From Candidatus Magasanikiibacteriota bacterium (GTDB lineage: Bacteria > Patescibacteriota > Patescibacteriia > Magasanikbacterales > GWA2-37-8), in assembly GCA_046590235.1 (NCBI GenBank), contig JBKJTY010000035.1, forward strand, positions 14,722-78,721: a stretch of DNA of 64,000 nt, read 5' to 3'. The notes beneath the pieces were generated by a model. The model was not told where the DNA came from. It worked only from the letters and a program-made list of their open reading frames with translations, and searched no databases. The position numbers and the translations under genes are program-made. Shown here piece by piece: positions 11,604 through 30,113 of the stretch. Each line of letters opens with the position of its first letter. The first letter of the stretch is position 1.

Positions 11604-11628
11604 AAAACCAGCCGCTCGGCTGGTTTTG
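11604..11628 (+). terminator. rho-independent terminator after pyk
   Basis: aaaaaaCCAGCCgctcGGCTGGtttt directly after the stop codon. Confidence 0.55.
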
Positions 11629-11868
11629 TCATTCACAATAAAATGTCATTCAGAGCGAAGCGTGGAATCTTCCTATTGTTCAATCTACCATTTTTACTTC
11701 ACTATCGTTCTTTTATTCTCTTACTGTTGCACAGTTTGCTTGTCACTTTCTTTATAACTAAAGGAAGGTAACCCCTGCCTGCCGGCAGGCAGGAAAGAAA
11801 GTTTCGGGGGAAAGTAAAACTCGGCTGCGGCCTCAAACAGTTACTTTCCCCCGAACCCCCTAGCGAGT
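11629..11868. repeat. Copy a of a duplicated ~230-nt structured intergenic element (R1). It carries an inserted 20-bp palindrome at 11775-11794.
   Basis: About 85% identical over ~170 nt to 21659-21830 (gtcattcacaataaaatgtcattcagagcgaagcgtggaatcttcctattgttcaat...). The 3' stem gggggaaagtaa...ttacttccccc is replaced in copy b by gggggttgctca...tgagcagcccc, a compensatory change. Confidence 0.6.
11775..11794. repeat. 20-bp perfect palindrome CCTGCCTGCCGGCAGGCAGG (mini-insertion; second copy at 19211-19230)
   Basis: Present after GTAACC in R1 copy a, but absent at the corresponding site of R1 copy b (gtaacc|aaaagaaag at about 21798-21806). Confidence 0.6.
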
Positions 11869-15667: not shown

Positions 15668-15775
15668 ATGAATCATATTCAATCCTACAATTTGTGCGCA
15701 ATGAAGAAGTTGGTTATTACCACCTCTATTGTCGTGCGTTTTGATAGCCAGGGTGAATATGGTCTTCGTGCATAA
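15668..15775 (+). CDS. small ORF (35 aa) at the 5' end of the GC-rich cassette; possible leader peptide or small protein
   Basis: ATG 15668 ... TAA. The ORF is just downstream of the promoter; there is no homology evidence. Confidence 0.2.
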   Translation: MNHIQSYNLCAMKKLVITTSIVVRFDSQGEYGLRA

Positions 15776-15936
15776 ACAAGTGCATCAATCCATCCTTTCA
15801 CCCTGAACTACCAAGTTCGGGGCTTTTTTATGAGAGGGGTGTAACGTCGTTTGGAGCAGCCAGTTTTAAGAGAGATTGGCTGATCCAAAGGATCCAGTTC
15901 GCTATATCGGCGACTGTCACACGGCAGGAGTCTCAG

Positions 15937-16233
15937 ATGAACATCGATCGGCACATGGAAGGCATTCGCACTAGGAGCGACATCGAGAAGGAGCGCAAGC
16001 AGAAGGAGCGCGAGAAGCTCGAGGACAGCGTCAAGCTGTCGATGTGGATCGGGAACAACCAGAAGGCCAGGGGAGTTTTGCAGCTCCCGTCGGACATCAA
16101 CGTCCTTCCGGGCTGCGGCTGCGAGAAGAAGGACCAGATCGGCAAGAAGGGGTTCTCGATGACTCGCCTCAACGTGAGCCTGCCCTGGGAACACTACCGG
16201 TGCCCGAAGAAGGCTAAGAAGGGTAACGCCTAG
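15937..16233 (+). CDS. hypothetical basic protein (98 aa), GC-rich with foreign codon usage
   Basis: RBS AGGAG 7 nt upstream. Codons are strongly G/C-ending (GAG, AAG, CTC, GGC), unlike the flanking genes. Sequence is KERKQKEREKLED...HYRCPKKAKKG. Confidence 0.5.
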   Translation: MNIDRHMEGIRTRSDIEKERKQKEREKLEDSVKLSMWIGNNQKARGVLQLPSDINVLPGCGCEKKDQIGKKGFSMTRLNVSLPWEHYRCPKKAKKGNA

Positions 16234-16254
16234 TTTCCGAAGCTGCTGCCGTGC

Positions 16255-16310
16255 GGAGGGAGGCGGTCCATATATTTCGACGAACAGTCGAATACATGGC
16301 CGCCCCCTCC
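16255..16310 (+). other. long hairpin (15-bp stem with a nested inner hairpin) between the ORF and the ribozyme
   Basis: GGAGGGAGGCGGTCCAT ... ATGGCCGCCCCCTCC; the loop contains a TTCGAC/GTCGAA palindrome. Confidence 0.5.
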
Positions 16311-16312
16311 GA

Positions 16313-16383
16313 GCCTCTATTCTTTCCTTAGTAAGGAAACTGATGAGTCCCTGATAGTTATGAAGAGGACGAAAATAGAAGTG
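16313..16383 (+). ncRNA. hammerhead self-cleaving ribozyme, type III topology (predicted cleavage between 16322 and 16323)
   Basis: Helix III 5' strand CUCUAU (16315-16320), then UUC with cleavage predicted after it. Helix I is UUUCCUU-AGU-AAGGAAA (16323-16339). CUGAUGA is at 16340-16346. Helix II is GUCC-16 nt loop-GGAC, with G10.1-C11.1 conserved. GAAA is at 16371-16374. Helix III 3' strand is AUAGAAG. Confidence 0.6.
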
Positions 16384-16477
16384 TAATCATATAGATCAGT
16401 GAGTTGTTGTATGACGATTGACTGATCTACATGATTTTGCACTTTCACCGGCCACACGGCCGCATTGGAGGCAGCAC

Positions 16478-16657
16478 ATGTGTGAGGCAAAGGATGGTTC
16501 GTTTAGTGGCGTTTCCACACAGAGCGATCTTTCGCCTGAAGACCAGGCTGAACTCGCTAAGCTCGTTACGCCAACATCGGTCACACCGGTCAAGCCGCGC
16601 GAGCTCATCGATGCGCGCAAGCAGTGCTCGGAGCGCACGAAGCCGCCGATCTGGTAG
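16478..16657 (+). CDS. hypothetical small acidic protein (59 aa), GC-rich
   Basis: RBS GGAGG upstream of the ATG; same foreign codon usage as its neighbours. Confidence 0.4.
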   Translation: MCEAKDGSFSGVSTQSDLSPEDQAELAKLVTPTSVTPVKPRELIDARKQCSERTKPPIW

Positions 16658-16804
16658 TTCTTTTTTCCTCCCGGTCGGCCAGGTATGTGTACCTGGCCGA
16701 CCGCGGAGTTCAATCTGAACGATAAGCTATTTTTAAAAAATGGTTTACCGGTCCGATTGACCTACGACTACCATACCGGTGGTCTAAACAAAGGAGTAGT
16801 TCGC

Positions 16805-17194
16805 ATGAGCCGGCCGTTCAAGGTCTTTGGTGCGCTGAGCAGTGAAGGCCTCAAGTTTCTCGAGGAGTTCTTCGAGGGAGGAAAGGAGGAGTTCGAGCAG
16901 TCGCTGGCGTTGGTCCTCGACAAGGGCCATCTCAACCTGAAGAAGGGTGTGCGGATCGAGATCCAGATCCCGCTGATCGTCTTCACTTTGAAGGCGAGCG
17001 CGCAGACGAAGCTCGAGGGCATGTCGCTCGTGAGCGACTCGCTCGTCGAGGTCGCAAAGACCGAAAAGGGGAAGGAAAAGTTTTTCGTCTTCGAGCGCTT
17101 TAAGCTCGTTGAGAAGTACCCCGCCGCCAAGACGCCCCAGCTCGCGATCGTTCCGACCGAGGCGGAAGCTGGCGTCGCCGAAACGGCCGCCTAA
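16805..17194 (+). CDS. hypothetical protein (129 aa), GC-rich
   Basis: RBS AAGGAG upstream; G/C-ending codons; no recognisable motif. Confidence 0.5.
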   Translation: MSRPFKVFGALSSEGLKFLEEFFEGGKEEFEQSLALVLDKGHLNLKKGVRIEIQIPLIVFTLKASAQTKLEGMSLVSDSLVEVAKTEKGKEKFFVFERFKLVEKYPAAKTPQLAIVPTEAEAGVAETAA

Positions 17195-17213
17195 CGGTGG
17201 TCACAACACAATA

Positions 17214-17247
17214 GGGGATGGTAGCAGCTACGCTGGCTACCATCCCC
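17214..17247 (+). terminator. strong hairpin terminator closing the GC-rich cassette
   Basis: GGGGATGGTAGC-agctacgctg-GCTACCATCCCC, a 12-bp stem. Confidence 0.55.
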
Positions 17248-17315
17248 GAACCTTATTCTTATTTTGTTAACGTCCATCACGGCCGTTTTTTTATTTTTTA
17301 TGGTATAATAAAGCC

Positions 17316-19210: not shown

Positions 19211-19230
19211 CCTGCCTGCCGGCAGGCAGG
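19211..19230. repeat. second copy of the 20-bp palindrome CCTGCCTGCCGGCAGGCAGG
   Basis: An exact copy of 11775-11794, here immediately after GTAAC of the hydrolase stop codon context. Confidence 0.6.
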
Positions 19231-19276
19231 CGTTGACTTCTTTAAGTATTTAAGCTATACTGAAGAAGCTTTAAAA

Positions 19277-19350
19277 GCGCACTTAGCTCAGTTGGTTAGA
19301 GCATCTCGTTTACACCGAGAGGGTCGAGGGTTCGAATCCCCCAGTGCGCA
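19277..19350 (+). tRNA. tRNA-Val (anticodon TAC)
   Basis: Acceptor stem GCGCACT/AGTGCGC, D-arm GCTC..GAGC, anticodon stem TCTCG/CGAGA with loop TTTACAC, T-loop TTCGAAT. No CCA is encoded. There is one A-C mismatch in the T-stem. Confidence 0.8.
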
Positions 19351-19356
19351 CGTATG

Positions 19357-19389
19357 AAAATAGCAGCTTAACGCTGTTGTTTTTTTATT
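19357..19389 (+). terminator. terminator module T (left direct repeat of the islet)
   Basis: aaaatAGCAGCttaacGCTGTTgttttttt; an almost identical copy is at 21619-21648 and a variant at 20604-20634. Confidence 0.55.
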
Positions 19390-19463
19390 CCTACTTCATT
19401 CGAGCACCATGTCGTGCACAATAAAAACACATTCGTTTAATCGAGTGTGTTTTGTTGTGTGTA

Positions 19464-19492
19464 TTGACAAAATTGCATTTTATTGCTATACT
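19464..19492 (+). promoter_or_regulatory. promoter TTGACA-N17-TATACT for cassette A
   Basis: TTGACA at 19464-19469, TATACT at 19487-19492. Confidence 0.5.
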
Positions 19493-19554
19493 ATGCCGTT
19501 GGGATTAATTTCTCAACACAACCATAAACGTTTTTTACAACCCAAGGAGTAGTG

Positions 19555-20412
19555 ATGGAAAAGGTGCGTGCCGTAGCGGTTCTGTTGTTCATGTTTACAA
19601 CCTCCAACCTTGCCATCGCGGCAGAGAAAGAGCTCTCGATTCCCAAGGATCAGCTAGCCCTGCTCGACAAGGCCAGGAAGGCCCTCGTCAAGATCGCCGC
19701 CAAGAGCGACCGTGCGAAAGGGTTGTTGGCTTTGTACAACAACCACGCAGTTCCGGCCCTTACCGATAGCGACCAGGTTCGGATCGTTTCCATCCCGAAG
19801 GTGGTGCCGTACTTTTTTGTGGCGGCGAACCCGCGGGTTGAGACGCAAGTCTCGAATGAGGGTGGAACATTCGCCTATTTTAACTGTACTGAACAGCCGA
19901 GCTTGCTCTTGAAGAATTTCCCGACTGTCTCAGAAACGGTCCATGGCATTATGCTGGCCCACGAGTTGGTGCATGCTGAGGACTGCCTGTTCGGAGGCGA
20001 GGGGGCAAATAAACAGCATGATGATGCTTGGTTGATCGGCGAATTGCATGCGCACAACACTGTCTGGATGCTGCTTAACGACATCTCCGACGGAGGTTGG
20101 AATAAGGTTGTGACAGGTTCTCTCCGTCGGCGAATGCAGATGATGAGCGCCGGCCAGGACAACCCGAAAGCAATGGTCTTCGGATATTCTACAGATGATA
20201 TCGTGAGCATTGAAAAAATGTTCGGTGCCCAAGATGATGTCGCAATCGGCGCCTTGATTGCCCAACTCCAGGTTGATGTGAACATGCTCAAAATCGCGCT
20301 CAATACACCTGGCAGCGGCGTGCTCTACGACGTGTCTCCTGAACTGGCAGAAAATCAGTTGAGGTTAGTCAAAGCGTTCTACAAAGAGAACGAACAAGCT
20401 ATTCAGCAGTAG
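19555..20412 (+). CDS. secreted protein with an HExxH-like motif (possible metallopeptidase-like), GC-rich cassette A
   Basis: RBS AAGGAG; signal peptide (AVAVLLFMFTTSNLAIAAE); motif AHELVHAED; GC-rich codon usage. The ORF track's first M is a GTG at 19552. Confidence 0.5.
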   Translation: MEKVRAVAVLLFMFTTSNLAIAAEKELSIPKDQLALLDKARKALVKIAAKSDRAKGLLALYNNHAVPALTDSDQVRIVSIPKVVPYFFVAANPRVETQVSNEGGTFAYFNCTEQPSLLLKNFPTVSETVHGIMLAHELVHAEDCLFGGEGANKQHDDAWLIGELHAHNTVWMLLNDISDGGWNKVVTGSLRRRMQMMSAGQDNPKAMVFGYSTDDIVSIEKMFGAQDDVAIGALIAQLQVDVNMLKIALNTPGSGVLYDVSPELAENQLRLVKAFYKENEQAIQQ

Positions 20413-20430
20413 CGGTTTCTTCGCAAACCG

Positions 20431-20634
20431 CCACGGTCCCGGATACTCAGGGGATCGTGGCGAGTAGGGTCAAAAAACCACCTACAAACTCACGAAGTTT
20501 TCAAGCGATTGGAAATTTCATGAGTAGGTGGTTTTTTAATTCCAACCACCGCTTTATTTCTCTAACCATGGTGTTCCATCGAGCACCCACGTCGTGCACA
20601 CATGAAAATAACAGTGTTTAGCTGTTATTTTTTT
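20431..20634 (+). repeat. structured 3' repeat unit of cassette A (modules S1 stem-loop, S2 long hairpin, M motif, T terminator)
   Basis: S1 is ccacggtccc...gggatcgtgg. S2 is aaaaaaccacctac-38 nt-gtaggtggtttttt. M is ggtgttccatcgagcacccacgtcgtgcaca. T is aaaataacagtgtttagctgttattttttt. All four are repeated after cassette B. Confidence 0.55.
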
Positions 20635-20656
20635 GTCTTCACACAAGCTTCAATCC

Positions 20657-20685
20657 TTGACAATGGATCAAAAATTAATTACACT
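20657..20685 (+). promoter_or_regulatory. promoter TTGACA-N17-TACACT for cassette B
   Basis: TTGACA at 20657-20662, TACACT at 20680-20685. Confidence 0.45.
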
Positions 20686-20734
20686 GTCACAGCCCTTTTC
20701 CAATGAAACCTTCTATCCCTTGGAGAAATAAACG

Positions 20735-21424
20735 ATGCGTGCAATTATTTTCACGATCTTCATTGCTGCTCTGCAGCCGTTGGGTGAGCAGCCTATAAAA
20801 TCACAAGCACCTTTAGCGGAAGAAAAGACAGCCTCTTTGGCTTGTAAGAACGGTCAGGAAGGGCTCAAGAACACGAAAGGATCGCCGTGGTGGTGGATTA
20901 ATAAGATCAATCGGAATTGCGACGCAGAAGCAAGTCGTGAAGCCTACCGTGCAAACTGGGAGCGTTTTCGGACAACTTTCCCAGTTGCGGCAGCTTGGAT
21001 GGCTATGCAGTTAGACTATGTAGTCGACGCAACAATCATCCAGAAAGACCTGTTGTCAGGCTTCGTAACAAACGTAAACTTTGATTCTGACGCAATTGAT
21101 CCAGAAATGGCACAAAAAATACTCGAAAGATTAAAGGGTTATGGTGCCATAATTTCTGCCGAATCAAAACCAATCATTGTGACGGTAACCAGCGTGTTCG
21201 ACAAGCCGGATTGGTCAGAAGCAGACAAGTACCGATACGTCTTTGCCTGCAAGTTTTCTCAAGTGGTGATGGAGTATGGAGCCTTCAAGGTAATTGCTGA
21301 TGCCGCCGATGAAGTCGTAGTGCCAGACATTTACATGAAAATGGGAGATTGTCACGAGTTAATGACAGTCATCCCCGAGTTGGTAGAAAATATCGTGGCT
21401 GAATACCGCAAGCAGAACAAATGA
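20735..21424 (+). CDS. secreted hypothetical protein, GC-rich cassette B
   Basis: Signal peptide MRAIIFTIFIAALQP; GC-rich; no recognisable motif. Confidence 0.5.
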   Translation: MRAIIFTIFIAALQPLGEQPIKSQAPLAEEKTASLACKNGQEGLKNTKGSPWWWINKINRNCDAEASREAYRANWERFRTTFPVAAAWMAMQLDYVVDATIIQKDLLSGFVTNVNFDSDAIDPEMAQKILERLKGYGAIISAESKPIIVTVTSVFDKPDWSEADKYRYVFACKFSQVVMEYGAFKVIADAADEVVVPDIYMKMGDCHELMTVIPELVENIVAEYRKQNK

Positions 21425-21438
21425 ACATGTCAAAAAGT

Positions 21439-21648
21439 CACCGCGATCCCGGATACTCTGGGGGTCGTGGTGGGAGCTAAAAAACCACCTACAAACTCAT
21501 AAGTTTTTCAAGTAATTGGAAACTTCATGAGTAGGTGGTTTTTTATTTCAACACTTCCAACCATCGCCTAATCTCAACAACCACGGTGTTCCATCGAGCA
21601 CCCACGTCGTGCACATATAAAATAGCAGCTTAATGCTGTTGTTTTTTT
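21439..21648 (+). repeat. structured 3' repeat unit of cassette B (S1, S2, M, T). The T copy is the right direct repeat of the islet.
   Basis: Modules are colinear with 20431-20634. The S1 stem has compensatory changes (caccgcgatccc/ggggtcgtggtg versus ccacggtccc/gggatcgtgg). Confidence 0.55.
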
Positions 21649-21658
21649 ATACCCACAA

Positions 21659-21870
21659 GGTGTCACTCGCAATAAAATGTCATCCAGAGCGGAGCGTGGG
21701 ATCTTCCTATTATTCAATTTTACTTCGCTATCGTTCTTTCTTATTTTTCACTCTTGCACAGTCCGCTTGTCACTTTTCTTTGTAACCAAAGCAAAGTAAC
21801 CAAAAGAAAGTTTCGGGGGTTGCTCAGACTCGCCTCGGCTCAGACAGTGAGCAGCCCCAGAACCCCAACT
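21659..21870. repeat. copy b of structured element R1 (lacks the 20-bp palindrome)
   Basis: Aligns with 11629-11868 and carries the compensatory 3' stem. Confidence 0.6.
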
Positions 21871-21933
21871 CCTCGGGCTGTTTTATTATTCTTACTCATG
21901 GTATAATTAAGTAATATTTAATTATCTGAATGG

Positions 21934-24069
21934 ATGTTTATGCAAAAAAGTAAAAGGATTTCGACGCTATCAATCGCGTTACTTAGTTTGCTTTCTTTGG
22001 CAACTTCACTATTTAATCCAATAGCAGCGTCAGCGCTTGAAACATGGACTGAACGTCGGCCTGAAGGCATCGATGGCGATAATACTTGGGAAGGTGCTAG
22101 CGATGCTGATGGGTCAAACCTGATCGCAATAAACACAGCTGGTGAATTATTCATTTCGACAGATAGTGGTGTTAGCTGGAATCCGACTAATCCAGTACTA
22201 GATTCTGAAAATTGGAGCACGGTAGCATCTGATGCAGATGGTTCAAATTTAATTGTTGCACGCAATGGTCGTGCTTACATTACGACTAATGGCGGTTCTA
22301 GCTGGGCTGAAACACAACCAGCAGGGGATACAGATAAGTTGTGGATAACTGTTGGTAGTGATGCTGACGGCTCCACACTTATGGCAGCTGCTAGTTTTGG
22401 TCGTTTGTACATCTCTGCAAACGGTGGTACTACATGGACCGAACGCCAGCCAGCTGGAGATGTTAATAGTAGTTGTCAAAGCATGGTATCAGACACTACT
22501 GGTACTAATCTTTTTGTTCAATGTGCGAACCGTCTTTATACTTCAACTGATGGTGGTGTCAATTGGACTGAACGCCAGCCTATGGGTAATACAAATTTTT
22601 TTGCGAGAGATCTTGCTTCTGATGCGACAGGTTTAAAACTTGTTGCGGGCGTTGAAGGTGGTCGCCTGTATACGTCAGCCGACGGTGGCGCTACATGGAC
22701 CGAGCGTCAACCTGCTGGGGATACAAATCAACAGTGGGTAGGACTTGATTCGGGTGCAGATGGCACACATTTGATCGCAGCGGCGAACTCTGGTCGTTTG
22801 TACACATCCTCAGATAGCGGTGTTACTTGGACTGAGCGCCGGCCAGCAGGTGATGTAGATATAGGATGGAGATTTGCGGCCATGGGCGGTAATTTTACTT
22901 TCTTTGTAGGTGCAAATAATGGTAGGTTGTATACGGGTATTATAGATGAAGCCGGCCCAATAATTACCACTTACTCCCCAGCTGACAATGCTACCGATGT
23001 TGCTGTTACTGCCAATCTCACTATCACCCTAGATAGCACCTTCGTCACCGGAACAAACAAAAATATTATCATTAAAAAATCTTCTGACGATAGTATTGTT
23101 GAAACAATTTCAGTTAGCAGTAGTCAAGTAATCGCAAGTGGTTTAGAAATTACCATTAATCCAAGCGCATCTTTGAGCTATAGTACAAGCTACTATGTCC
23201 AAATGGACGCTGGTGCGTTCCAAGACGCCTATAGCAATGACATGCTAGCTATCTCCAATACAACAACCTGGAACTTTACAACTGTCGCCGCACCACGAGT
23301 TGGTGGTGGCGGATATAGTCCACCACTCGTTTCCACACCAGTCGCGCCTGTAATCACCATGCCAATTTACGAACCACCCCTCATCCCCAATCCAGCGGAT
23401 CCGGTAACAATCTCACCAATAAACATTGCGCCACCTATTATTGTGCAACCTGTCATTGCTCCTGTTGCACCAGTCATTACGCCGGTGGTCGTTGTTCCAG
23501 AAGTAACAACCCCTGTTGTCGTCACGCCTGTCTCAGCCCCGCTCATTACTGCGCCACCAATCCAAGTTAAACTCCTCAACCCAGGCATCCGCTCAGTAGA
23601 AGTGTTAAATCTTCAAAAAACACTTAACCAACTCGGTTATACTGTTGCACAAACTGGTCCTGGCTCAATCGGCAATGAAACAAATTTCTTCGGTAAAGCC
23701 ACCTATAACGCGCTTCTGAATTTCCAAAAATTAAATAATTTGCCAACAACCGGTATTGCCGATAAAGCTACAATAGAAACAATCAATCAAAAGTCTGTTA
23801 CAGGAGAAGTACTAGGTGTAAAACTCATTAAATTTACACGCAACTTAGCAACCGGCAGTAATGGCGATGATGTTAAACGCTTACAGCAGTGGCTTAATGC
23901 CAACGGCTTCACGGTCGCGGAGTCAGGTCCTGGCTCTGTTGGTAAAGAAACTAAACAGTTCGGTAAAGCAACCCGCGAAGCACTCAAACGCTTCCAAAAG
24001 GATAGTGGTGAAAAAGAAACGGGAATCTTTAGCGTAAACACAAAAGAGAAGATTAATGGAATGCTCTAA
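21934..24069 (+). CDS. secreted BNR/Asp-box beta-propeller protein with an Ig-like domain, a Pro-rich linker and two C-terminal peptidoglycan-binding domains
   Basis: Signal peptide. At least six Sx[DN]xGxxW repeats (STDSGVSWN, TTNGGSSWA, SANGGTTWT, STDGGVNWT, SADGGATWT, SSDSGVTWT). Pro/Val linker. Two PG_binding_1-like repeats (LQKTLNQLGYTV..., VKRLQQWLNANGFTV...). Confidence 0.65.
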   Translation: MFMQKSKRISTLSIALLSLLSLATSLFNPIAASALETWTERRPEGIDGDNTWEGASDADGSNLIAINTAGELFISTDSGVSWNPTNPVLDSENWSTVASDADGSNLIVARNGRAYITTNGGSSWAETQPAGDTDKLWITVGSDADGSTLMAAASFGRLYISANGGTTWTERQPAGDVNSSCQSMVSDTTGTNLFVQCANRLYTSTDGGVNWTERQPMGNTNFFARDLASDATGLKLVAGVEGGRLYTSADGGATWTERQPAGDTNQQWVGLDSGADGTHLIAAANSGRLYTSSDSGVTWTERRPAGDVDIGWRFAAMGGNFTFFVGANNGRLYTGIIDEAGPIITTYSPADNATDVAVTANLTITLDSTFVTGTNKNIIIKKSSDDSIVETISVSSSQVIASGLEITINPSASLSYSTSYYVQMDAGAFQDAYSNDMLAISNTTTWNFTTVAAPRVGGGGYSPPLVSTPVAPVITMPIYEPPLIPNPADPVTISPINIAPPIIVQPVIAPVAPVITPVVVVPEVTTPVVVTPVSAPLITAPPIQVKLLNPGIRSVEVLNLQKTLNQLGYTVAQTGPGSIGNETNFFGKATYNALLNFQKLNNLPTTGIADKATIETINQKSVTGEVLGVKLIKFTRNLATGSNGDDVKRLQQWLNANGFTVAESGPGSVGKETKQFGKATREALKRFQKDSGEKETGIFSVNTKEKINGML

Positions 24070-24123
24070 ACTTCATTACTAAAAAATAATGGCTTTAATA
24101 AGCCATTATTTTTTTGTTTATCC

Positions 24124-24152
24124 TTGACAAGCGCAACTCTTACGGGCATACT
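24124..24152 (+). promoter_or_regulatory. promoter TTGACA-N17-CATACT
   Basis: TTGACA at 24124-24129, CATACT at 24147-24152. Confidence 0.4.
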
Positions 24153-24201
24153 ATGCACGAAGAATAACCTTAACCTATCTCAAATACCCTGGAGTCAGAC
24201 A

Positions 24202-24600
24202 ATGTCTAACACGGCGGTTAAGGAAGTAAAAAAAGTCCTTCCTCCTATTCCCCCCATCGAAAATACAAGGTGTTCACCTGCCAACAGAAAGCAGAAAGAA
24301 CTTCCGTTATTTGACGATGTGCAGCAGTTTGTGGTGACCGTTGTGGCATCACACGTCGGTGTCGGTTGGATTACTCCGCGCCAATTGTTTGAGGTAATTG
24401 CGAAGTATGACGGTTGGAACACCGGTCAGAAAACCACGTTTCTTCCGTTGTTCAGTCGGCTGATTGAGCTTGAATTACTTGAAGTTCGAGGGCCGAAAAA
24501 AGGTTTGGAATACCGTATAACTGTTTCTGCCGCAATCAAATACCTTGAATGGACAGAAGAACAAGCTCGCGACTTAGGCCTCAGTGGAACGGCCGAATGA
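24202..24600 (+). CDS. hypothetical protein (132 aa), possibly winged-helix
   Basis: ORF starting MSNTAVKEV...; weak resemblance to wHTH folds only. Confidence 0.35.
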   Translation: MSNTAVKEVKKVLPPIPPIENTRCSPANRKQKELPLFDDVQQFVVTVVASHVGVGWITPRQLFEVIAKYDGWNTGQKTTFLPLFSRLIELELLEVRGPKKGLEYRITVSAAIKYLEWTEEQARDLGLSGTAE

Positions 24601-24632
24601 TAAAAAAATACGATTGGGGATAAATAAAAGCA

Positions 24633-24693
24633 AGACCGTCTCCAACTCGTTTTAACAATAAATATTGTTGTTAGAACGAGGCGGTCTTATAAA
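24633..24693. other. long imperfect inverted repeat with a palindromic loop, followed by a terminator-like hairpin (24700-24730)
   Basis: aagaccgtctccaactcgttttaac-aataaatatt-gttgttagaacgaggcggtctt, then AACAAC-tgagtatagctcg-GTTGTTtttt. Confidence 0.4.
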
Positions 24694-24752
24694 CAACTGA
24701 GTATAGCTCGGTTGTTTTTTAATCTGACATTTTAGGCAAAATCTGGTATACT

Positions 24753-26912
24753 GTGGTCATGACTCGATCCATGCTTTCCAGTCTATTTTCTCCGAAATCA
24801 ATCGCGATTGTCGGAGCATCCCGCGATAAGACCAAAATTGGTCATATTGTTTTGCGTAACATAAAAGATGGGGGATATGAAGGGAAAATTTTTCCGGTTA
24901 ATCCTTCCGCAAAGAAAATAGATGGACTCGAAGCATTTCCAAATTACGAAGCACTTCCGAAAGTTCCTGATCTTGCCATCATTGCACTACCAGCCGCACT
25001 TGTACTTGAATCTGTCACCGCAATCGGAAAAAAGGGAACAAAAAATATTATCATTTTCAGCGCCGGTTTTAAAGAAATGGGTGGGGAAGGCGCAAAACTG
25101 GAAGAACAACTGCTCGCGCTCGCGAACAAATATAAATTAACAATTGTTGGTCCGAATTGCTTAGGTTTAGTAAGTCCGGAAGCACATTTAAACGCAACAT
25201 TTGGAAAGGTAGATCTTAAACCAGGCAATGTTCGCTTCATCTCTCAGTCCGGCGCCATTGCGACCAGTATTTTTGATTGGGCAGAATCCGCACAGATTGG
25301 TTTAGGAGAATTTATTACACTTGGTAACAAAACTGTAGTTGGCGAAGATGCCGTTTTACGCCACTGGAACGAACAAACAATCAAACCAATAACTAGAAAG
25401 AAACAGCAAAATGAAGGATTGTCTGGTTACCAGCCTGTTGGATTATATTTAGAATCCATTGTCCACGGCCGAGAATTTTTACGTTATGCTAAAGAAATTT
25501 CTAAACACGATCCAGTTTTTCTTTTAAAACCTGGAAAATCTGCTGGCGCGCAAAAAGCCATGATGTCTCACACTGGATCATTGGCGGGCAACGATGCAGT
25601 GCTCAACGCTGCACTCAAGGATGCGGGTATTATGCGTTGTGATGGTATCGAGGATGTCTTTGACTTAACCCGTGCATTTGCTTGGGAAAATGCACCAGAA
25701 GGTCCAAACGTAGCCGTCGTATCAAATGCTGGAGGTCCAGCCGTTATGAGTGCCGATCTTCTCGTTGAAGCAGGGCTTACCCTTGCTCCGTTAAGTGAAA
25801 AAACACATCAAGCACTTCAAAAACATCTTCCACGTGCCGCTGGAATCATGAATCCAGTTGATGTTCTCGGTGACGCCTTAGCAGATCGATACGCCATCGC
25901 CCTTGAAGCAGTGCTTACAGATAAAGCAGTTGATGCGTTGGTGGTTATTTTAACACCGCAAATGATGACGCAGGTTGCTGAAACAGCGAAAGTTATTGCG
26001 ACACTTGGAAAAAAGCATCATAAACCAATTGTTTGTTCATTCATGGGTGGTCGCACTATTATTAGCGGTGAAGTTATTTTGAATAAATATAAATTACCAT
26101 CATTCCGTTATCCAGAACGAGCTATTAAAGCGCTTGGCAAAATGTGGTGGTGGCAATCATGGAGAACAAAACAGCAAAAAACAATGGATAAGCCAAAACC
26201 GGTCATTGGTAGTGCAAAAATTGAAAGTGAATTGCAGGCTCGACAGAAAAAAGGCCAAACTGCATTAACTCCAATCGAAGCAAACAATCTTTTAGAAAAA
26301 ATTGGTTTGCGTATCCCACCATCTTTCAGTTGTAGTAAAAAAATAGATGCAGAAAATTTCTTTAAACAGCAAGGTGCTATTGTTTTAAAACTTGCTTCTG
26401 AACGCGTGCTTCACAAAAGTGATGCCGGCGGTATTATTACTAATATCCGCACGGTAGATGAATTGTCGAAAGCTTGGGATGTGCTTGAAAAAAAAGTTAC
26501 TGATTTGAAATCAGCAGGGGACATCAGTGCGACTATTCAAGCGCAAAAACAACTAACGGGCGGCTTAGAAATCATCGTTGGTATCACTACTGATGCGACA
26601 TTTGGTCGTGTGCTTATGTTTGGTGCTGGTGGTGTATTGGTTGAGCTTGTTAAAGATCGCAATTTGCACTTACTACCTCTCAGCAGAACGGCTATCGAAG
26701 AATTAGTCAGTTCATCACTCATTTTCCCAATGCTCAAAGGTTACCGCGGTGAACAATCGTTTGCCTTGGAAAAATTGTATGATCTCATTGAGCGACTCAT
26801 CAACGCTATTAACGAAATGCCATCCATTGCTGATGTAGAAATAAATCCGATTATCATTACTCATGAAGACGCTTGGGCAGTAGATGGAAGAATCATTTTA
26901 CACACCGTATGA
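24753..26912 (+). CDS. acd: ADP-forming acetyl-CoA synthetase (fused alpha/beta; acetate--CoA ligase [ADP-forming])
   Basis: N-terminal CoA-binding domain SIAIVGASRDKTKIGHIV, a succinyl-CoA-synthetase-like flavodoxin domain, and a C-terminal ATP-grasp. 719 aa. Confidence 0.75.
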   Translation: MVMTRSMLSSLFSPKSIAIVGASRDKTKIGHIVLRNIKDGGYEGKIFPVNPSAKKIDGLEAFPNYEALPKVPDLAIIALPAALVLESVTAIGKKGTKNIIIFSAGFKEMGGEGAKLEEQLLALANKYKLTIVGPNCLGLVSPEAHLNATFGKVDLKPGNVRFISQSGAIATSIFDWAESAQIGLGEFITLGNKTVVGEDAVLRHWNEQTIKPITRKKQQNEGLSGYQPVGLYLESIVHGREFLRYAKEISKHDPVFLLKPGKSAGAQKAMMSHTGSLAGNDAVLNAALKDAGIMRCDGIEDVFDLTRAFAWENAPEGPNVAVVSNAGGPAVMSADLLVEAGLTLAPLSEKTHQALQKHLPRAAGIMNPVDVLGDALADRYAIALEAVLTDKAVDALVVILTPQMMTQVAETAKVIATLGKKHHKPIVCSFMGGRTIISGEVILNKYKLPSFRYPERAIKALGKMWWWQSWRTKQQKTMDKPKPVIGSAKIESELQARQKKGQTALTPIEANNLLEKIGLRIPPSFSCSKKIDAENFFKQQGAIVLKLASERVLHKSDAGGIITNIRTVDELSKAWDVLEKKVTDLKSAGDISATIQAQKQLTGGLEIIVGITTDATFGRVLMFGAGGVLVELVKDRNLHLLPLSRTAIEELVSSSLIFPMLKGYRGEQSFALEKLYDLIERLINAINEMPSIADVEINPIIITHEDAWAVDGRIILHTV

Positions 26913-28666
26913 AATCATCGTTTGTCATAACTATCGGCGGGGAAGCAGGCTTTGGTATTATGTCAGCCGGTTTAACGCTTGCAAAAATTGCCACCCGCTC
27001 AGGTTTTAGTTCATTTGGCTACGCAGAATATCCTTCAATTGTTCGTGGAGGATACAACGTCATGCATATTGCTGTTGGGGCTGAAGTTCGCGCGCCAAAA
27101 AAGTCTGTCGACTTTCTCATTGCCTTAAATCAAGAATCAATTAAACAAAACGCAGCAATTTTAGAACATGATGCCTGTGTTATTTTTGACGCTGACCAAA
27201 AAATTACTACGACGACACTAGCTCCGAGTATTGAAAAAATTCCAGTTCCATTTAACCGTTTTGCTAAAGAAATTGGTGGAAGTATTTTGATGCGCAACAC
27301 CGTCGCGCTCGGGGCGTTAGTAGCGCTTGCAGGTGGAGACTTAGAAATTCTCAAAGAATTAATTGATGAAGAATTTGCAACCAAGAAAAAAGATGTTGCT
27401 GTCCGTAATAAAAAATGTGCCGAAGCTGGTTATAATTATGTCAAAAAAGAATTTGCTTCGTTGATAAGAACTGATCTAAAACCTTTCAGTAAAAAAACAG
27501 AACGCTTGGTCATGACTGGTAATGACGCCATTGCACTCGGAGCAATTGCTGCCGGTATGCAATTTGCGGCGATTTATCCAATGACCCCAACATCAAACAT
27601 TCTCCATATTCTTGCTCCACACCAAGAAGAATTTGGGTATATTTACAAACAACCAGAAGATGAAATTTCTGCATTAACTATGGCCATTGGTGCATCGTTT
27701 GCTGGTGCTCGTTCAATGGTGGCGACAGCCGGTGGGGGCTTTTGTCTCATGACTGAAGGCTACGGACTGGCTGCTATGACCGAAACACCTGTTGTGATCG
27801 TCGTAGGGATGCGCGGTGGGCCGGCAACCGGCCTTCCCACATGGACTGAACAAGGTGATCTACAATTCATACTGCACGCGCATCAAGGCGAATTTCCACG
27901 CATCGTGCTCGCTGCTGGAGATCTTGAGGAAGCCTTTTCGCTTACCATGGATTCTTTTAATCTGGCAGAAAAATATCAAACACCGGTTATTGTACTTGTT
28001 GATAAACATCTCTGTGAGAGTTTTGCCTCAACCAAACCATTTGCGTATGGTAAATACAGTATTGAACGCGGAAAAACGTTGCTCAAATACCAAGAAAATT
28101 ATCCACGTTACGCCTTTGCTGATGATGGAATTTCACCGCGCGCTTTTCCAGGCAGCGGTAATCACATCTTGGCAAACTCCGATGAACACAATGAACGAGG
28201 GTTTACTGATGAAAGCAGTAAAAACCGTATTCATATGATGGATAAACGCATGAAAAAATTGGAAACGTGCGCTAGAGTAGAAATGCCTGAACCAATAATG
28301 TATGGGCCTAAAAATGCTGATTTAACAATTGTTTCCTGGGGAAGTAATAAGGGTGTCATTCTCGACGCAATACAAAAGTACGACAATGTAAATTATCTCC
28401 ATATCACTTGGATGAACCCGTTTCCAACAGCCTTTGTAAAAAAGATTTTGGCAGGAAGTGAGCGCATCATGATTATGGAATGTAATTACAACGGACAGCT
28501 CGACCAACTTATCCAAGAAAAAACCGGCGTAATCATTAAAGAAAAATGGTTCAAATACGACGGCCGCCCATTCTTTGTTGAAGAAGTTATAGAAAAAGTA
28601 AATTCTCTTTTAGCACAACCGTATGGCATTGCCATTCCAAAACAAACTAGAAATAAAGTCGCCTAG
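26909..28666 (+). CDS. 2-oxoacid:ferredoxin oxidoreductase subunit alpha (fused gamma-alpha)
   Basis: POR-gamma-like N-terminus (ITIGGEAGFGIMSAGLTLAKIA) followed by alpha domains. The ATG overlaps the acd stop as ATGA. Confidence 0.75.
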   Translation: MKSSFVITIGGEAGFGIMSAGLTLAKIATRSGFSSFGYAEYPSIVRGGYNVMHIAVGAEVRAPKKSVDFLIALNQESIKQNAAILEHDACVIFDADQKITTTTLAPSIEKIPVPFNRFAKEIGGSILMRNTVALGALVALAGGDLEILKELIDEEFATKKKDVAVRNKKCAEAGYNYVKKEFASLIRTDLKPFSKKTERLVMTGNDAIALGAIAAGMQFAAIYPMTPTSNILHILAPHQEEFGYIYKQPEDEISALTMAIGASFAGARSMVATAGGGFCLMTEGYGLAAMTETPVVIVVGMRGGPATGLPTWTEQGDLQFILHAHQGEFPRIVLAAGDLEEAFSLTMDSFNLAEKYQTPVIVLVDKHLCESFASTKPFAYGKYSIERGKTLLKYQENYPRYAFADDGISPRAFPGSGNHILANSDEHNERGFTDESSKNRIHMMDKRMKKLETCARVEMPEPIMYGPKNADLTIVSWGSNKGVILDAIQKYDNVNYLHITWMNPFPTAFVKKILAGSERIMIMECNYNGQLDQLIQEKTGVIIKEKWFKYDGRPFFVEEVIEKVNSLLAQPYGIAIPKQTRNKVA

Positions 28667-29510
28667 CGATTTAAATTCACCCGAAGTCTGTACGTGGTGC
28701 CCTGGTTGTGGTGACCTGGCTATTTGGGCTGCTTTCAAACAAGCGGCAGTCGAAGCAGGTTGGGATAATACCAACACCGCGCTTGTTGCCGGCATTGGTT
28801 GTCACGGACACATTGTAAACTTTCTTAAAATGACCAGTTTCGAAGGCCTGCACGGACGTGCACTTCCCGTTGCTGCTGGTATCAAAATGGCAAACCACGA
28901 TCTCAACGTTTTTGTTTTCACTGGTGACGGCGATTGTCTGGCTGAAGGCGGTAATCATTTCATGCATGCTGCAAGGCGCAACCACGACATGACCGTTATT
29001 TTGCATGACAACGCCATCTATGGCCTCACCACTGGTCAAACATCACCTCGCTCACCAAAAGGTTTTGTTTCTAAATCAACTCCTGAAGGCAACCTTGAAG
29101 AACCAATCCACCCACTTCGTTTAGCCTTTGCTGCTGGCGCTACTTTTTTAGCACGTTGTTATGCTGGCGACATTCCACGCTTAGTTGAGCTCATGAAATT
29201 AGCAGAGCAACATAAAGGTTTTGCCGTGCTCCAAGTTTTGCAGCCGTGTGTCACATTCAACAAATTATACACGCACCAGTTTTATCAAGAAAATATTTAC
29301 GAATTACCAGTTGAGTACGATCGCACTGATAAGACGGCAGCTTTTGGTAAACTACAAGAGTGGGGGATGAAGCAAATTCCTGTTGGTATTTTCTATCAAG
29401 TCGACGAACCAACGTTCGAAGGACAGGTTCCGCAACTCAAAAAACAAACACTCGTCAAAGGTGGTCCGAAAAAAAGAACGATTACGGATTTGTATAAAAA
29501 TTATCGCTAG
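28623..29510 (+). CDS. 2-oxoacid:ferredoxin oxidoreductase subunit beta (TPP-binding)
   Basis: GCHGHIVNF and GDGDCLAEGGNHFMHAARRN (TPP/Mg site); Cys residues for the Fe-S cluster (CTWCPGC). Confidence 0.75.
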   Translation: MALPFQNKLEIKSPSDLNSPEVCTWCPGCGDLAIWAAFKQAAVEAGWDNTNTALVAGIGCHGHIVNFLKMTSFEGLHGRALPVAAGIKMANHDLNVFVFTGDGDCLAEGGNHFMHAARRNHDMTVILHDNAIYGLTTGQTSPRSPKGFVSKSTPEGNLEEPIHPLRLAFAAGATFLARCYAGDIPRLVELMKLAEQHKGFAVLQVLQPCVTFNKLYTHQFYQENIYELPVEYDRTDKTAAFGKLQEWGMKQIPVGIFYQVDEPTFEGQVPQLKKQTLVKGGPKKRTITDLYKNYR

Positions 29511-29513
29511 CCT

Positions 29514-29981: not shown

Positions 29982-30017
29982 TAAATGGCTATCTAAGCCA
30001 TTTTTTGCTTAAGAGCC

Positions 30018-30046
30018 TTGACAAAAGGCTCTTTTTATGTTATACT
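30018..30046 (+). promoter_or_regulatory. promoter TTGACA-N17-TATACT
   Basis: TTGACA at 30018-30023, TATACT at 30041-30046. Confidence 0.5.
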
Positions 30047-30069
30047 CATCTGTTTCCTATCGAAACGCA

Positions 30070-30113
30070 CTGGGGAGAAATGAGCTTATAGTATAAGGCT
30101 CATTTCTCCCCAG
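30070..30113 (+). promoter_or_regulatory. perfect 16-bp stem-loop in the 5' leader of the GC-rich ORF
   Basis: CTGGGGAGAAATGAGC-ttatagtataag-GCTCATTTCTCCCCAG, between the promoter and the start codon. Confidence 0.5.

What the first reader, a model, noticed from the sequence alone, without database searches (positions are those of the whole stretch)
19351..21660. tRNA-Val-adjacent islet: two secreted-protein cassettes with shared modular 3' structured repeats, bracketed by a 31-nt direct repeat
Immediately after tRNA-Val there is a ~2.3 kb GC-rich islet. Each of its two unrelated secreted-protein ORFs has its own TTGACA-N17-TAtACT promoter.

Each ORF is followed by the same ~200-nt ordered set of RNA-structure modules:
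- S1: a 10-12 bp stem-loop with compensatory changes between copies.
- S2: a 14-bp stem with a 38-nt loop.
- M: a GCAC-N7-GTGC-containing motif, ggtgttccatcgagcacccacgtcgtgcaca.
- T: a terminator.

The T module aaaatagcagcttaaYgctgttgttttttta occurs at 19357 and 21619, differing at one position, so it forms direct repeats at both islet ends. An M-like motif also follows the left copy.

This architecture resembles a cassette array (integron-like attC or another site-specific recombination site) or a degenerate tRNA-targeting integrative element. No recombinase is visible in the window.
Basis: seen in the sequence. Interest (0 to 1): 0.7.

Follow-up and report, generated by a model that had tools for sequence, protein, structure and literature searches.

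The report
Two-gene foreign islet behind tRNA-Val
Right after a tRNA-Val gene sits a small, horizontally acquired pair of self-contained secreted-protein genes that share a duplicated block of terminator hairpins and are bracketed by a copy of the tRNA's own terminator; it is a real insertion scar, but not an integron, and no mobility machinery is visible.

Summary
The repeats are real. tRNA-Val(TAC) at 19277-19351 is followed by T1, a diverged M1, a hairpin, a promoter and ORF1. Then come S1-S2-M2-T2, a promoter and ORF2, then S1'-S2'-M3-T3.

- **3' blocks:** the two ~215-nt blocks differ at 10% of paired columns and 40% of unpaired columns. None of 63 predicted pairs is broken.
- **M box:** it is invariant over 31 nt and holds two direct TCGWGCAC octamers.
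- **T1 and T3:** they are 30/31 identical, while T2 is only ~70% identical to them.
- **Uniqueness:** none of the modules occurs elsewhere in the window, in ~800 kb of related loci, or in viral contigs. M was also absent from JGI metagenomes.
- **ORFs:** both are compositionally foreign (GC3 0.65 and 0.49 against 0.31-0.39), yet their promoters match the host's own consensus. ORF1 belongs to an unnamed secreted HExxH (zincin-like) family. ORF2 has no detectable relative.
- **Relatives:** eight distant relatives run tRNA-Val straight into a permease gene.
- **Mobility machinery:** no recombinase is found in the 64 kb, and no attC-type site.

Best reading: a moron-like two-gene segment of 2,262 bp, whose 3' blocks act as double terminators, entered by a single crossover at the tRNA terminator. 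This resembles shuffling between phage PeSL regulatory cassettes. The integron reading is rejected. A trans-mobilised cassette remains possible.

The parts
19233..19261 (+). Promoter-like site of tRNA-Val (TTGACT-N17-TATACT). It shows the host consensus that the islet promoters share.
19277..19351 (+). tRNA-Val (anticodon TAC). The acceptor stem is intact across the point where independent unitigs break (19325).
19346..19392 (+). Left direct repeat (DR-L): the last 6 nt of the tRNA plus terminator T1 (19357-19387) plus a short flank.
19395..19421 (+). M1: a diverged copy of the M box, with octamers TCGAGCAC (19400) and TCGTGCAC (19412).
19424..19453 (+). T1b: an A-tract/hairpin/T-tract terminator-like hairpin. 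Together M1-T1b score as a weak third copy of the M-T model (17.8 bits).
   Evidence: (I13)
19464..19492 (+). P1: promoter-like site TTGACA-N17-TATACT with a TG extension (11/12 match).
19555..20412 (+). ORF1, 285 aa. It has a signal peptide (…NLAIA/AE) and invariant HExxH plus E. It belongs to an unnamed secreted or lipoprotein zincin-like family. GC3 is 0.65.
20429..20462 (+). S1: a 12-bp GC-rich hairpin just after the ORF1 stop codon.
20472..20537 (+). S2: a ~27-bp interrupted hairpin flanked by A6 and T6 (bidirectional intrinsic-terminator shape).
   Evidence: (I10)
20570..20600 (+). M2: the invariant 31-nt box GGTGTTCCATCGAGCACCCACGTCGTGCACA. It forms a 7-bp hairpin and holds two direct TCGWGCAC octamers.
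20605..20635 (+). T2: a terminator hairpin, 68-73% identical to T1/T3, with pairing kept.
20657..20685 (+). P2: promoter-like site TTGACA-N17-TACACT.
20735..21424 (+). ORF2, 229 aa. It has an N-terminal hydrophobic segment and no detectable homolog, family or fold. GC3 is 0.49.
21439..21472 (+). S1': the second copy of S1. It carries 1 compensatory and 3 wobble-compatible changes relative to S1.
21479..21544 (+). S2': the second copy of S2 (89% identical).
21585..21615 (+). M3: identical to M2 over 31 nt.
21609..21655 (+). Right direct repeat (DR-R): GTGCAC plus terminator T3 (21619-21649) plus flank. T3 is 30/31 identical to T1.
21661..21885 (+). R element: the second copy of a ~235-nt structured repeat (the other copy is at 11627-11865). 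It forms the resident right-hand border of the islet.

Best explanation
**What it is.** The stretch 19352-21656 is a genuine, horizontally acquired two-gene islet in the variable slot just 3' of tRNA-Val. It consists of two self-contained, moron-like transcription units. Each unit has a host-type sigma-70 promoter, a signal-peptide ORF, and a shared ~215-nt 3' block.

**What the 3' block does.** The block acts as a double terminator/insulator and abuts the next promoter. Its parts are:
- S1, a stop-proximal hairpin.
- S2, a strong A6-hairpin-T6 terminator.
- M, an invariant 31-nt box.
- T, a second A-tract/hairpin/T-tract terminator.

**How it arrived.** The islet is bracketed by a ~47-nt imperfect direct repeat that is the tRNA-Val terminator itself (T1 and T3). 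The T1/T3 pair is 97% identical. The two 3' blocks are only 82-89% identical in S1 and S2, and T2 is ~70% identical to T3. So the two-cassette array was already assembled elsewhere. Its carrier probably had host-like non-coding DNA. The array then entered this site recently as one 2,262-bp piece, by a single (Campbell-type) crossover between a T-bearing circular DNA and the resident terminator. This is recombination between repeated terminator/promoter regulatory cassettes, as documented for phage PeSLs. It is not integron-type capture.

**Shown:** the repeats, structure-preserving substitutions, foreign ORF composition, host-type promoters, absence from relatives, and absence of a recombinase and of attC.

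**Inferred:** terminator function, the single-piece Campbell entry, and whether the crossover was homologous or catalysed in trans. The role of M is unknown; it is probably a protein-recognition site.
For: **Repeats**
- T1/T3 are 30/31 identical, with none expected by chance. With flanks the repeat reaches ~47 nt.
- The 3' blocks align end to end.
- Paired columns differ at 10% and unpaired columns at 40%. Of 63 predicted pairs, 11 vary and none is broken (3 double compensatory, 8 wobble).
- The two blocks fold far better than shuffles (z = -9.0 and -6.1).
- T1 and T1b match the terminator scan. S2 and T have the A-tract/hairpin/T-tract shape of the window's other terminators.

**Composition and expression signals**
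- GC3 is 0.65 for ORF1 and 0.49 for ORF2, against 0.31-0.39 for neighbouring genes.
- The islet promoters match the same consensus as the tRNA promoter and other host promoters.

**ORF relatives**
- ORF1's relatives are at most 39% identical. The closest lies on a 55% GC contig.
- ORF2 has only itself in a database of 5.8 billion proteins.

**Relatives and uniqueness**
- In L124, L125, L127, L129, L133, L140, L141 and L142 the permease ortholog follows tRNA-Val within ~90-150 bp. L139 and L144 each carry a different single gene at that position.
- The modules were not found in ~800 kb of related loci by BLAST, pattern search or covariance models.

**No recombination machinery**
- No recombinase is found in the window (and the L207 domain marks).
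- No attC-type site is present.

**Precedent**
- PeSL promoter/stem-loop cassettes flank ORFans and recombine into mini-circles (PMC2839356; PMC4122927).
- Morons are independent transcription units spread by HGT (PMC3594210).
Against: - There is no direct evidence of a crossover. No empty site or circular junction was seen, and the read data could not be searched.
- Only one genome carries the islet. The single close relative (L122, 79% nt identity) ends inside the tRNA, so recent presence or absence is untested.
- The relatives that lack the islet are distant (40-55% aa identity). They also lack the whole 12 kb between the tRNA and the permease, including housekeeping-like ACS/POR genes of host composition. 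So the synteny break by itself does not date the islet.
- A pure terminator role does not explain why M is 31/31 identical when its flanks are 57% and 73% identical.
- The tandem order rests on how the assembler resolved a 31-nt repeat. Independent unitigs of the same strain break exactly at M2 and M3 and inside the tRNA.
Confidence: 0.5

Rival explanations
1. The two units are non-autonomous, site-specifically mobilised cassettes (CIME-like or 'trans-integron'). The M-T junctions would be att-type sites, with the two direct TCGWGCAC octamers acting as recombinase binding sites. The units would be inserted one after another at the tRNA-Val/T site by a recombinase encoded elsewhere (an integrase of a phage or ICE, or a host Xer-type enzyme). 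T1-M1 would be the scar or an empty cassette.
For: - There are three M-(terminator) junctions in the same orientation, at every cassette boundary.
- M is invariant over 31 nt while its flanks diverge.
- Six of the window's eight TCGWGCAC octamers lie in the three M boxes.
- The islet lies directly 3' of a tRNA and is bounded by direct repeats.
- A 1,014-bp unitig of the same strain spans exactly one M-to-M period. That is also what an excised circle would give.
- CIMEs are defined as elements that keep attL and attR but have lost their integrase (PMC5704250).
Against: - No recombinase is found in 64 kb.
- The repeat covers at most 6 nt of the tRNA, and M is not tRNA-derived.
- M was not found anywhere else: viral contigs, JGI metagenomes, the related loci.
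- The inverted symmetry of M is only 6 bp, unlike the 11-bp arms of Xer sites.
- T1/T3 near-identity against T2 divergence fits one recent entry of the whole array better than stepwise capture.
- The unitig breaks are equally explained by a plain 31-nt repeat.
Confidence: 0.2
2. S1-S2-M-T is a member of a dispersed family of structured intergenic repeats (like BOX, REP/BIME or MITE elements). It happens to have landed, or been duplicated, behind both genes. The islet's architecture would then say nothing about how the genes arrived.
For: This genome clearly carries other structured intergenic repeats:
- The ~235-nt R element occurs at 11627 and 21661, with 8 compensatory pairs.
- A 20-nt palindrome occurs at 11774 and 19211.
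- GGGG...CCCCGAACC hairpins recur.
- The module is itself modular, as BOX elements are.
Against: - The only copies in 64 kb are adjacent to each other, inside the compositionally foreign islet.
- There are none in ~800 kb of relatives.
- No terminal inverted repeats or target-site duplications were seen at the block ends.
- The rest of the genome could not be searched.
Confidence: 0.12
3. The arrangement is an assembly artefact or population collapse. Alternative cassettes from different strains, or a chimeric join at the conserved tRNA body, were strung together through the 31-nt M repeat.
For: - Independent Logan unitigs of the same strain end at 19325 (inside the tRNA), at 20571 and at 21584 (the M boxes).
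- ORF1's exact protein is not on record for that sample, although ORF2 and the neighbouring genes are.
Against: - The tRNA acceptor stem is perfectly complementary across the 19325 break, whereas relatives have different acceptor stems.
- The two blocks are diverged copies (82-89% identical in S1 and S2), not collapsed identical repeats.
- With two in-edges and two out-edges at M, the tandem path is the simplest linear solution.
- The non-coding parts share the host promoter consensus.
Confidence: 0.05
4. It is a classical integron-type cassette array in which S2 or M serves as attC.
For: ORF-plus-3'-hairpin units are arranged head to tail.
Against: - No R''/R' core-site pair lies at attC spacing on either strand.
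- Each ORF has its own promoter.
- There is no IntI or any other integrase.
- The hairpins carry A and T tracts typical of terminators, and their substitutions include G-U wobbles on the + strand, which points to an RNA-level constraint.
Confidence: 0.02

Closest known systems
PeSL (promoter-early stem-loop) regulatory cassettes of T4-type phages (Arbiol et al. 2010, PMC2839356; Comeau et al. 2014, PMC4122927)
   Same: - Repeated composites of a stem-loop terminator and a strong sigma-70-type promoter flank small genes that are often ORFans.
- Recombination between neighbouring copies explains insertion, deletion and replacement of the genes in between, and can release mini-circles.
- Here terminator hairpins (T1b, T2) sit directly in front of P1 and P2, and a T duplicate brackets the segment.
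   Different: - This locus is chromosomal, next to a tRNA, with no phage genes in 64 kb.
- The conserved block here is much longer (~215 nt, two terminators plus S1 and M). It lies mainly 3' of the ORF rather than being centred on the promoter.
- No mini-circles or recombinants were observed.
Phage morons (reviewed in PMC3594210)
   Same: Each is an independent transcription unit with its own promoter, one ORF and a terminator. Each has nucleotide composition unlike its surroundings, is acquired by HGT, and often encodes a secreted or host-interaction protein.
   Different: This locus is not inside a recognisable prophage. Two units share a duplicated 3' block, and a direct repeat brackets the pair.
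tRNA-adjacent genomic islets and CIMEs (cis-mobilizable elements; PMC5704250, PMC6323972)
   Same: - It is located at the 3' side of a tRNA gene.
- It is bounded by direct repeats and has no integrase of its own.
- Units are arranged in tandem, as in accretion.
   Different: - The repeat is the terminator downstream of the tRNA, not the tRNA 3' end.
- It is only 2.3 kb long.
- No cognate integrase or related autonomous element is known.
- Excision is untested.
Integron gene cassettes
   Same: Small single-ORF units, each with a structured 3' element, lie in one orientation.
   Different: There are no attC core sites, no IntI, no attI or Pc, and each unit has its own promoter.
Modular intergenic repeats (pneumococcal BOX, REP/BIME, Correia-type MITEs) — recalled from general knowledge, not tested against those families
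   Same: It is a modular, hairpin-rich non-coding block repeated in intergenic DNA.
   Different: Only two full copies are seen, both inside one islet. No dispersed copies, TIRs or TSDs were seen.

Membership tests
Integron cassette array | An IntI-type tyrosine recombinase with attI and Pc next to the array | tested here: not met
   Pfam scans of nearly all window ORFs of at least 120 aa found no integrase or recombinase domain (57.5-62.7 kb covered by the L207 domain marks). The 29 kb of the contig outside the window was not seen.
Integron cassette array | An attC at the 3' end of each ORF: an imperfect palindrome with R'' (RYYYAAC) and R' (GTTRRRY) core sites 50-160 nt apart | tested here: not met
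   A script scan of 19352-21700 on both strands found 2-3 isolated core-like heptamers per strand and no R''/R' pair at attC spacing.
Integron cassette array | Mostly promoterless cassettes expressed from Pc | tested here: not met
   Each ORF is preceded by a 10-11/12 match to the sigma-70 consensus. This is a consensus match only; no expression data exist.
tRNA-targeting integrative element (genomic island, IME or prophage) | An integrase gene next to one att site | tested here: not met
   None was found between the tRNA and the permease, or anywhere in the window.
tRNA-targeting integrative element (genomic island, IME or prophage) | A direct repeat that duplicates the 3' part of the tRNA gene | tested here: inconclusive
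   The repeat shares only GCGCAC/GTGCAC with the tRNA end. The rest is the downstream terminator. M against the tRNA 3' half is not better than shuffles (p = 0.39-0.66). The covariance-model hit on 19320-19392 is carried by T1, not by the T-arm.
tRNA-targeting integrative element (genomic island, IME or prophage) | Present or absent at the same tRNA among related genomes | tested here: inconclusive
   Absent from 10 distant relatives with GH5-tRNA-Val synteny. The one close relative's contig ends inside the tRNA.
CIME (cis-mobilizable element) | Retains functional attL and attR of a known ICE/IME family and is mobilised by a related integrase | not testable with these tools
   No related autonomous element was found in phage, plasmid or viral collections.
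PeSL-type regulatory cassettes | Repeated composite of a stem-loop terminator and a sigma-70 promoter flanking small accessory ORFs | tested here: met
   T1b-P1 and T2-P2 are such composites, and M-T occurs at all three boundaries. The sequence similarity between M1-T1b-P1 and M2-T2-P2 is weak outside M and the promoter hexamers.
PeSL-type regulatory cassettes | Located in hyperplastic regions of T4-type phage genomes | tested here: not met
   No phage genes are present. PHROGs gave no hits for the ORFs, and there are no matches in phage records.
PeSL-type regulatory cassettes | Recombination between copies gives indels and mini-circles | not testable with these tools
   This needs read-level data or PCR.
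Moron | An independent promoter-ORF-terminator unit with composition unlike its surroundings | tested here: met
   (signals by consensus and structure only).
Moron | Embedded in a phage or prophage genome | tested here: not met
   No phage genes are found in the window.
Dispersed intergenic repeat (BOX/REP/MITE-like) | Many copies scattered through the genome behind unrelated genes | tested here: inconclusive
   No other copy is found in the 64-kb window.
Zincin-like HExxH metallopeptidases (ORF1) | An HExxH motif plus a downstream third ligand, and a zincin-like fold | tested here: inconclusive
   [not shown]

The most novel reading that the evidence does not exclude
M-T would be the recombination site of a cassette-capture system that has not been described, in a small-genome (possibly CPR-type) bacterium. 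Promoter-bearing single-ORF cassettes carrying foreign secreted-protein genes would be inserted one after another at the tRNA-Val terminator. The enzyme would be a recombinase acting in trans (for example a host Xer-type enzyme or a phage integrase). It would recognise the invariant box with its two direct TCGWGCAC octamers. Functionally this would be an integron analogue without attC or IntI.
Probability: 0.1. Interest if true: 0.75.

Novelty: new member of a known kind. Interest (0 to 1): 0.3.

Why it matters
If the reading is right, this is a clean small example of how a streamlined bacterium acquires and wires in foreign secreted-protein genes. The foreign ORFs sit between native-style promoter and terminator cassettes, dropped into the hot spot behind a tRNA. 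The scar (a duplicated terminator) points to recombination between regulatory cassettes rather than to a dedicated integrase.

It also yields three concrete leads:
- The invariant M box is unexplained and could be a regulator or recombinase site.
- ORF1 defines an unnamed secreted HExxH protein family of about 50 clusters, with a confident model but no close solved fold.
- The genome carries other structured intergenic repeats (the R element and a 20-nt palindrome).

None of this overturns current views. The value is descriptive unless M turns out to be a recombination site.

Tried and rejected
1. **Integron/attC reading.** Rejected: no core sites, no IntI, and each ORF has its own promoter.
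2. **M as a degenerate tRNA 3' end (classic att duplication).** Local alignment was no better than shuffles. The covariance-model hit on the tRNA end is carried by T1.
3. **Genome-wide search for M.** The pattern I gave to genome contigs (18 specified bases) was too loose. That scan was wasted. A stricter M pattern found nothing in JGI metagenomes.
4. **Viral contigs.** M, S2, T and S1 patterns found nothing. The R-element pattern also found nothing.
5. **Phage and plasmid collections.** The islet DNA and the ORF2 protein gave nothing beyond one 43-nt chance match.
6. **Known RNA families.** Rfam found only the tRNA. Nothing matched the modules or R.
7. **ORF2.** No homolog, family, solved relative or defence-system match. 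The single-sequence AF2 model is unusable (pLDDT 43).
8. **A conserved ORF1-ORF2 gene pair.** The neighbour of the closest ORF1 homolog is a response regulator, not an ORF2 relative.
9. **Extending beyond the window or into close relatives.** Exact-protein look-ups returned only short unitigs that break at the tRNA and at M.
10. **Covariance models of S1-S2 and M-T against ~870 kb of window plus relatives.** They recovered the known copies, M1-T1b weakly, and otherwise generic terminators or tRNA ends.
11. **A small conserved ORF inside the 3' block.** Rejected because the copies differ by 3-, 8- and 1-nt indels.

Full report
**1. What is there**

ARAGORN and Rfam place tRNA-Val(TAC) at 19277-19351 on the + strand. 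Reading the sequence together with the repeat finder gives this order, left to right:

- tRNA-Val
- T1 (19357-19387), then a short flank
- M1 (19395-19421)
- hairpin T1b (19424-19453)
- promoter P1 (19464-19492)
- ORF1 (19555-20412)
- S1 (20429-20462), S2 (20472-20537), a spacer, M2 (20570-20600), T2 (20605-20635)
- promoter P2 (20657-20685)
- ORF2 (20735-21424)
- S1' (21439-21472), S2' (21479-21544), a spacer, M3 (21585-21615), T3 (21619-21649)

T1 and T3 are 30/31 identical. Exact or near-exact searches for T, M, S2 and S1 find only these copies in the 64-kb window, with zero expected by chance. The corrections are listed under the observation check.

**2. The shared 3' block is a set of conserved hairpins plus one invariant box**

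The two blocks align end to end.

- Each folds far better than shuffled sequence (z = -9.0 and -6.1).
- On the two-sequence alignment RNAalifold predicts 63 pairs. Eleven of them vary and none is broken: 3 changed on both sides and 8 are wobble-compatible.
- Paired columns differ at 10% and unpaired columns at 40%.
- Several kept pairs are G-U on the + strand only. This fits an RNA-level constraint on the sense transcript.

S2 is not a 14-bp stem with a big loop. It is a ~27-bp interrupted hairpin between A6 and T6. T is likewise an A-tract/hairpin/T-tract. Both have the shape of the other terminators in this window, such as those at 11601, 24081 and 24691.

Identity by segment:

| Segment | Identity between the two blocks |
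|---|---|
| S1 | 82% |
| S2 | 89% |
| spacer | 57% |
| M | 100% (30/30 columns; 31 nt in sequence) |
| T | 73% |

M stands out. It forms a 7-bp hairpin (GGUGUUC/GAGCACC). It also contains two direct octamers, TCGAGCAC and TCGTGCAC, 12-13 nt apart. Six of the eight such octamers in the window lie in the three M boxes. M1-T1b is a weak third copy of the M-T unit (17.8 bits).

**3. The ORFs**

ORF1 (285 aa) has a signal peptide.

- The word-seeded search found only itself.
- The exhaustive HMMER search found about 50 cluster representatives at 39% identity or less.
- In an alignment of 40 members, the HExxH histidines and a glutamate 23 residues downstream are invariant, and the HExxH glutamate is nearly so (H136, E137, H140, E163). 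Most members start with signal or lipoprotein-like sequences.
- The AlphaFold model is confident (pLDDT 90.7).
- No Pfam, PHROG, NCBIfam or PADLOC family passes threshold.

I read ORF1 as a secreted zincin-like HExxH protein of an unnamed family.

ORF2 (229 aa) has an N-terminal hydrophobic segment. It has no detectable relative, family or usable model. The two proteins are unrelated.

**4. Foreign ORFs in native wrapping**

GC3 is 0.65 for ORF1 and 0.49 for ORF2, against 0.31-0.39 for GH5, EamA, BNR, ACS, POR and SHMT. The closest ORF1 homolog sits on a 55% GC contig.

By contrast the 3' blocks are 43-45% GC. P1 and P2 match the same TTGACA-N17-TAtACT consensus as the tRNA-Val promoter (19233) and other host promoters at 15625, 24124 and 24724. 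So the promoter motif is not an islet signature. The coding parts are foreign and the regulatory parts look native to this lineage.

**5. Context in relatives**

A protein-guided scan of JGI metagenomes with the upstream GH5-like gene returned 80 loci.

- Twelve keep tRNA-Val downstream of GH5, ten of them within about 110 bp of its end.
- In eight (L124, L125, L127, L129, L133, L140, L141, L142) the gene that starts ~90-150 bp after the tRNA is the ortholog of the window's permease at 31450-32520.
- L139 and L144 each have one different extra gene there.

The tRNA-Val 3' flank is therefore a variable slot. In this genome 12 kb lie between the tRNA and the permease:

- the islet
- the R element
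- a BNR/peptidoglycan-binding protein
- ADP-forming acetyl-CoA synthetase
- 2-oxoacid:ferredoxin oxidoreductase
- flavodoxin
- several hypothetical proteins

. Most of that has host composition. PORβ and the permease of one close relative both report the same longest-contig length of 7,649 bp, so they probably share a contig (inference). Only the first 2.3 kb looks recent.

These relatives are distant (40-55% aa identity). The only close one (L122, 79% nt identity) ends inside the tRNA. Recent gain is therefore inferred, not shown. No part of the islet is found in any related locus by BLAST, by pattern search, or by covariance models of S1-S2 and M-T.

**6. No mobility machinery and no attC**

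Pfam scans of nearly all window ORFs of at least 120 aa give FtsA/FtsZ, NrdR, pyruvate kinase, SHMT, a radical-SAM protein, sugar-nucleotide and glycosyltransferase genes and the like. They give no integrase, transposase or resolvase (and the L207 domain marks). A scan for attC core sites found no R''/R' pair at the right spacing on either strand. The integron reading is rejected.

M is not measurably derived from the tRNA 3' half. The bracketing repeat contains at most the last 6 nt of the tRNA. The classical signature of a tRNA-targeting integrase is therefore not met either.

**7. How it most likely arose and works**

T1/T3 are 97% identical, or about 88% over 47 nt with flanks (42 of 47). 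The two 3' blocks are 82-89% identical in S1 and S2, and T2 is only ~70% identical to T3. The block duplication is therefore older than the T duplication.

The simplest history has three steps:

1. A two-cassette array with already diverged 3' blocks existed on some carrier whose non-coding DNA resembles this host.
2. The array formed, or was part of, a circle carrying a T-like terminator.
3. A single crossover with the resident tRNA-Val terminator inserted 2,262 bp (the T1-to-T3 spacing) and left T on both sides.

This gives exactly the observed order: tRNA-T1 | M1-T1b-P1-ORF1-...-M3 | T3-R.

It mirrors what is documented for PeSL promoter/stem-loop cassettes in T4-type phages. These flank ORFans, recombine with each other and release mini-circles (PMC2839356; PMC4122927). 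The units themselves fit the definition of morons, apart from not lying in a prophage (PMC3594210).

In function, S1/S2/T most likely terminate and insulate two strongly promoted genes next to a tRNA gene. M is probably a protein-recognition site. Which protein binds it is unknown.

I put about 0.5 on this overall reading.

**8. Rivals**

- **Trans-mobilised, site-specific cassettes with M-T as att sites (CIME-like; PMC5704250), about 0.2.** M's invariance and its presence at every boundary speak for it. Against it: no recombinase, no tRNA-derived repeat, and no M box anywhere else.
- **A dispersed BOX/MITE-like repeat family, about 0.12.** The genome does have other structured repeats. But the only module copies seen are adjacent to each other inside the islet. 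Only the full genome can settle this.
- **Assembly artefact, about 0.05.** Independent unitigs of the same strain break at 19325, 20571 and 21584, and ORF1 is not on record in that sample. Against it: the tRNA acceptor stem is intact across the break, and the blocks are diverged copies rather than collapsed ones.
- **Integron, about 0.02.**

**9. Verdict**

This is a real, tidy, tRNA-adjacent islet of two moron-like secreted-protein genes that share a duplicated double-terminator block. The scar left by its insertion is a duplicated terminator. It is a new example of known kinds of things (a tRNA-flank islet, morons, recombination between regulatory cassettes) and not a new system.

The one unexplained feature is the invariant M box. 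It leaves roughly a one-in-ten chance that a trans-acting cassette-recombination system is hiding here.

Interest: 0.3.

Noticed in passing
window 11627-11865 and 21661-21885 (+); also L122 1-60: The R element is a ~235-nt structured repeat, 77% identical between its two copies, with 8 double-compensatory base pairs. One 3' hairpin has its 7-nt stem fully swapped (GGGGGAAAGTAA…TTACTTTCCCCC against GGGGGTTGCTCA…TGAGCAGCCCC). Each copy starts right after an intrinsic terminator, and its 5' end is also present in the 79%-identical relative. It matches no Rfam family. The 5' end TGTCAYTCRCAATAAAA resembles the 3' half of M1.
   Followed up: partly
window 11774-11793 and 19211-19230: A perfect 20-nt palindrome, CCTGCCTGCCGGCAGGCAGG, occurs twice. 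One copy is an insertion inside R copy 1. The other lies between the GH5 stop codon and the tRNA-Val promoter. None is expected by chance.
   Followed up: partly
window 15750-17250: A second GC-rich islet (55% GC; ORF GC3 0.51-0.60) lies behind a host-type promoter at 15625. It carries about three small ORFs without family matches, each followed by a GC-rich hairpin. The stretch 16375-17281 does not align with the close relative L122, so it is variable between relatives.
   Followed up: partly
window 17213-17250, 11810-11860, 21819-21870: Hairpins of the form GGGG(G)-variable stem-loop-CCCC(C)GAACC recur: twice as the 3' hairpin of R and once after the last ORF of the first GC-rich islet. They may form a family of terminator-like elements with a conserved base.
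   Followed up: no
window 19352-31400 against L124, L125, L127, L129, L133, L140-L142: In distant relatives tRNA-Val is followed directly by the amino-acid permease that lies 12 kb downstream here. The intervening 12 kb includes ADP-forming acetyl-CoA synthetase, a 2-oxoacid:ferredoxin oxidoreductase, flavodoxin and a BNR/PG-binding protein, all of host composition. L139 (SulP transporter) and L144 (387-aa hypothetical) carry other single genes in the same slot.
   Followed up: partly
[not shown]
   Followed up: partly
Logan sample SRR31159418 (L001, L123, L207, L208): The same strain is present at 100% identity in an independent assembly. Its unitigs break at 19325 (inside the tRNA) and at both M boxes. 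ORF1's exact protein is not on record there, while ORF2 and the neighbouring genes are. One unitig (1,014 bp) equals one M-to-M period.
   Followed up: no
window 32631-33008 (-): A small HTH_17 (excisionase/MerR-like) protein lies just downstream of the permease. It is 69-86% identical in distant relatives and keeps its position, so it is a conserved host gene rather than an islet-borne excisionase.
   Followed up: partly
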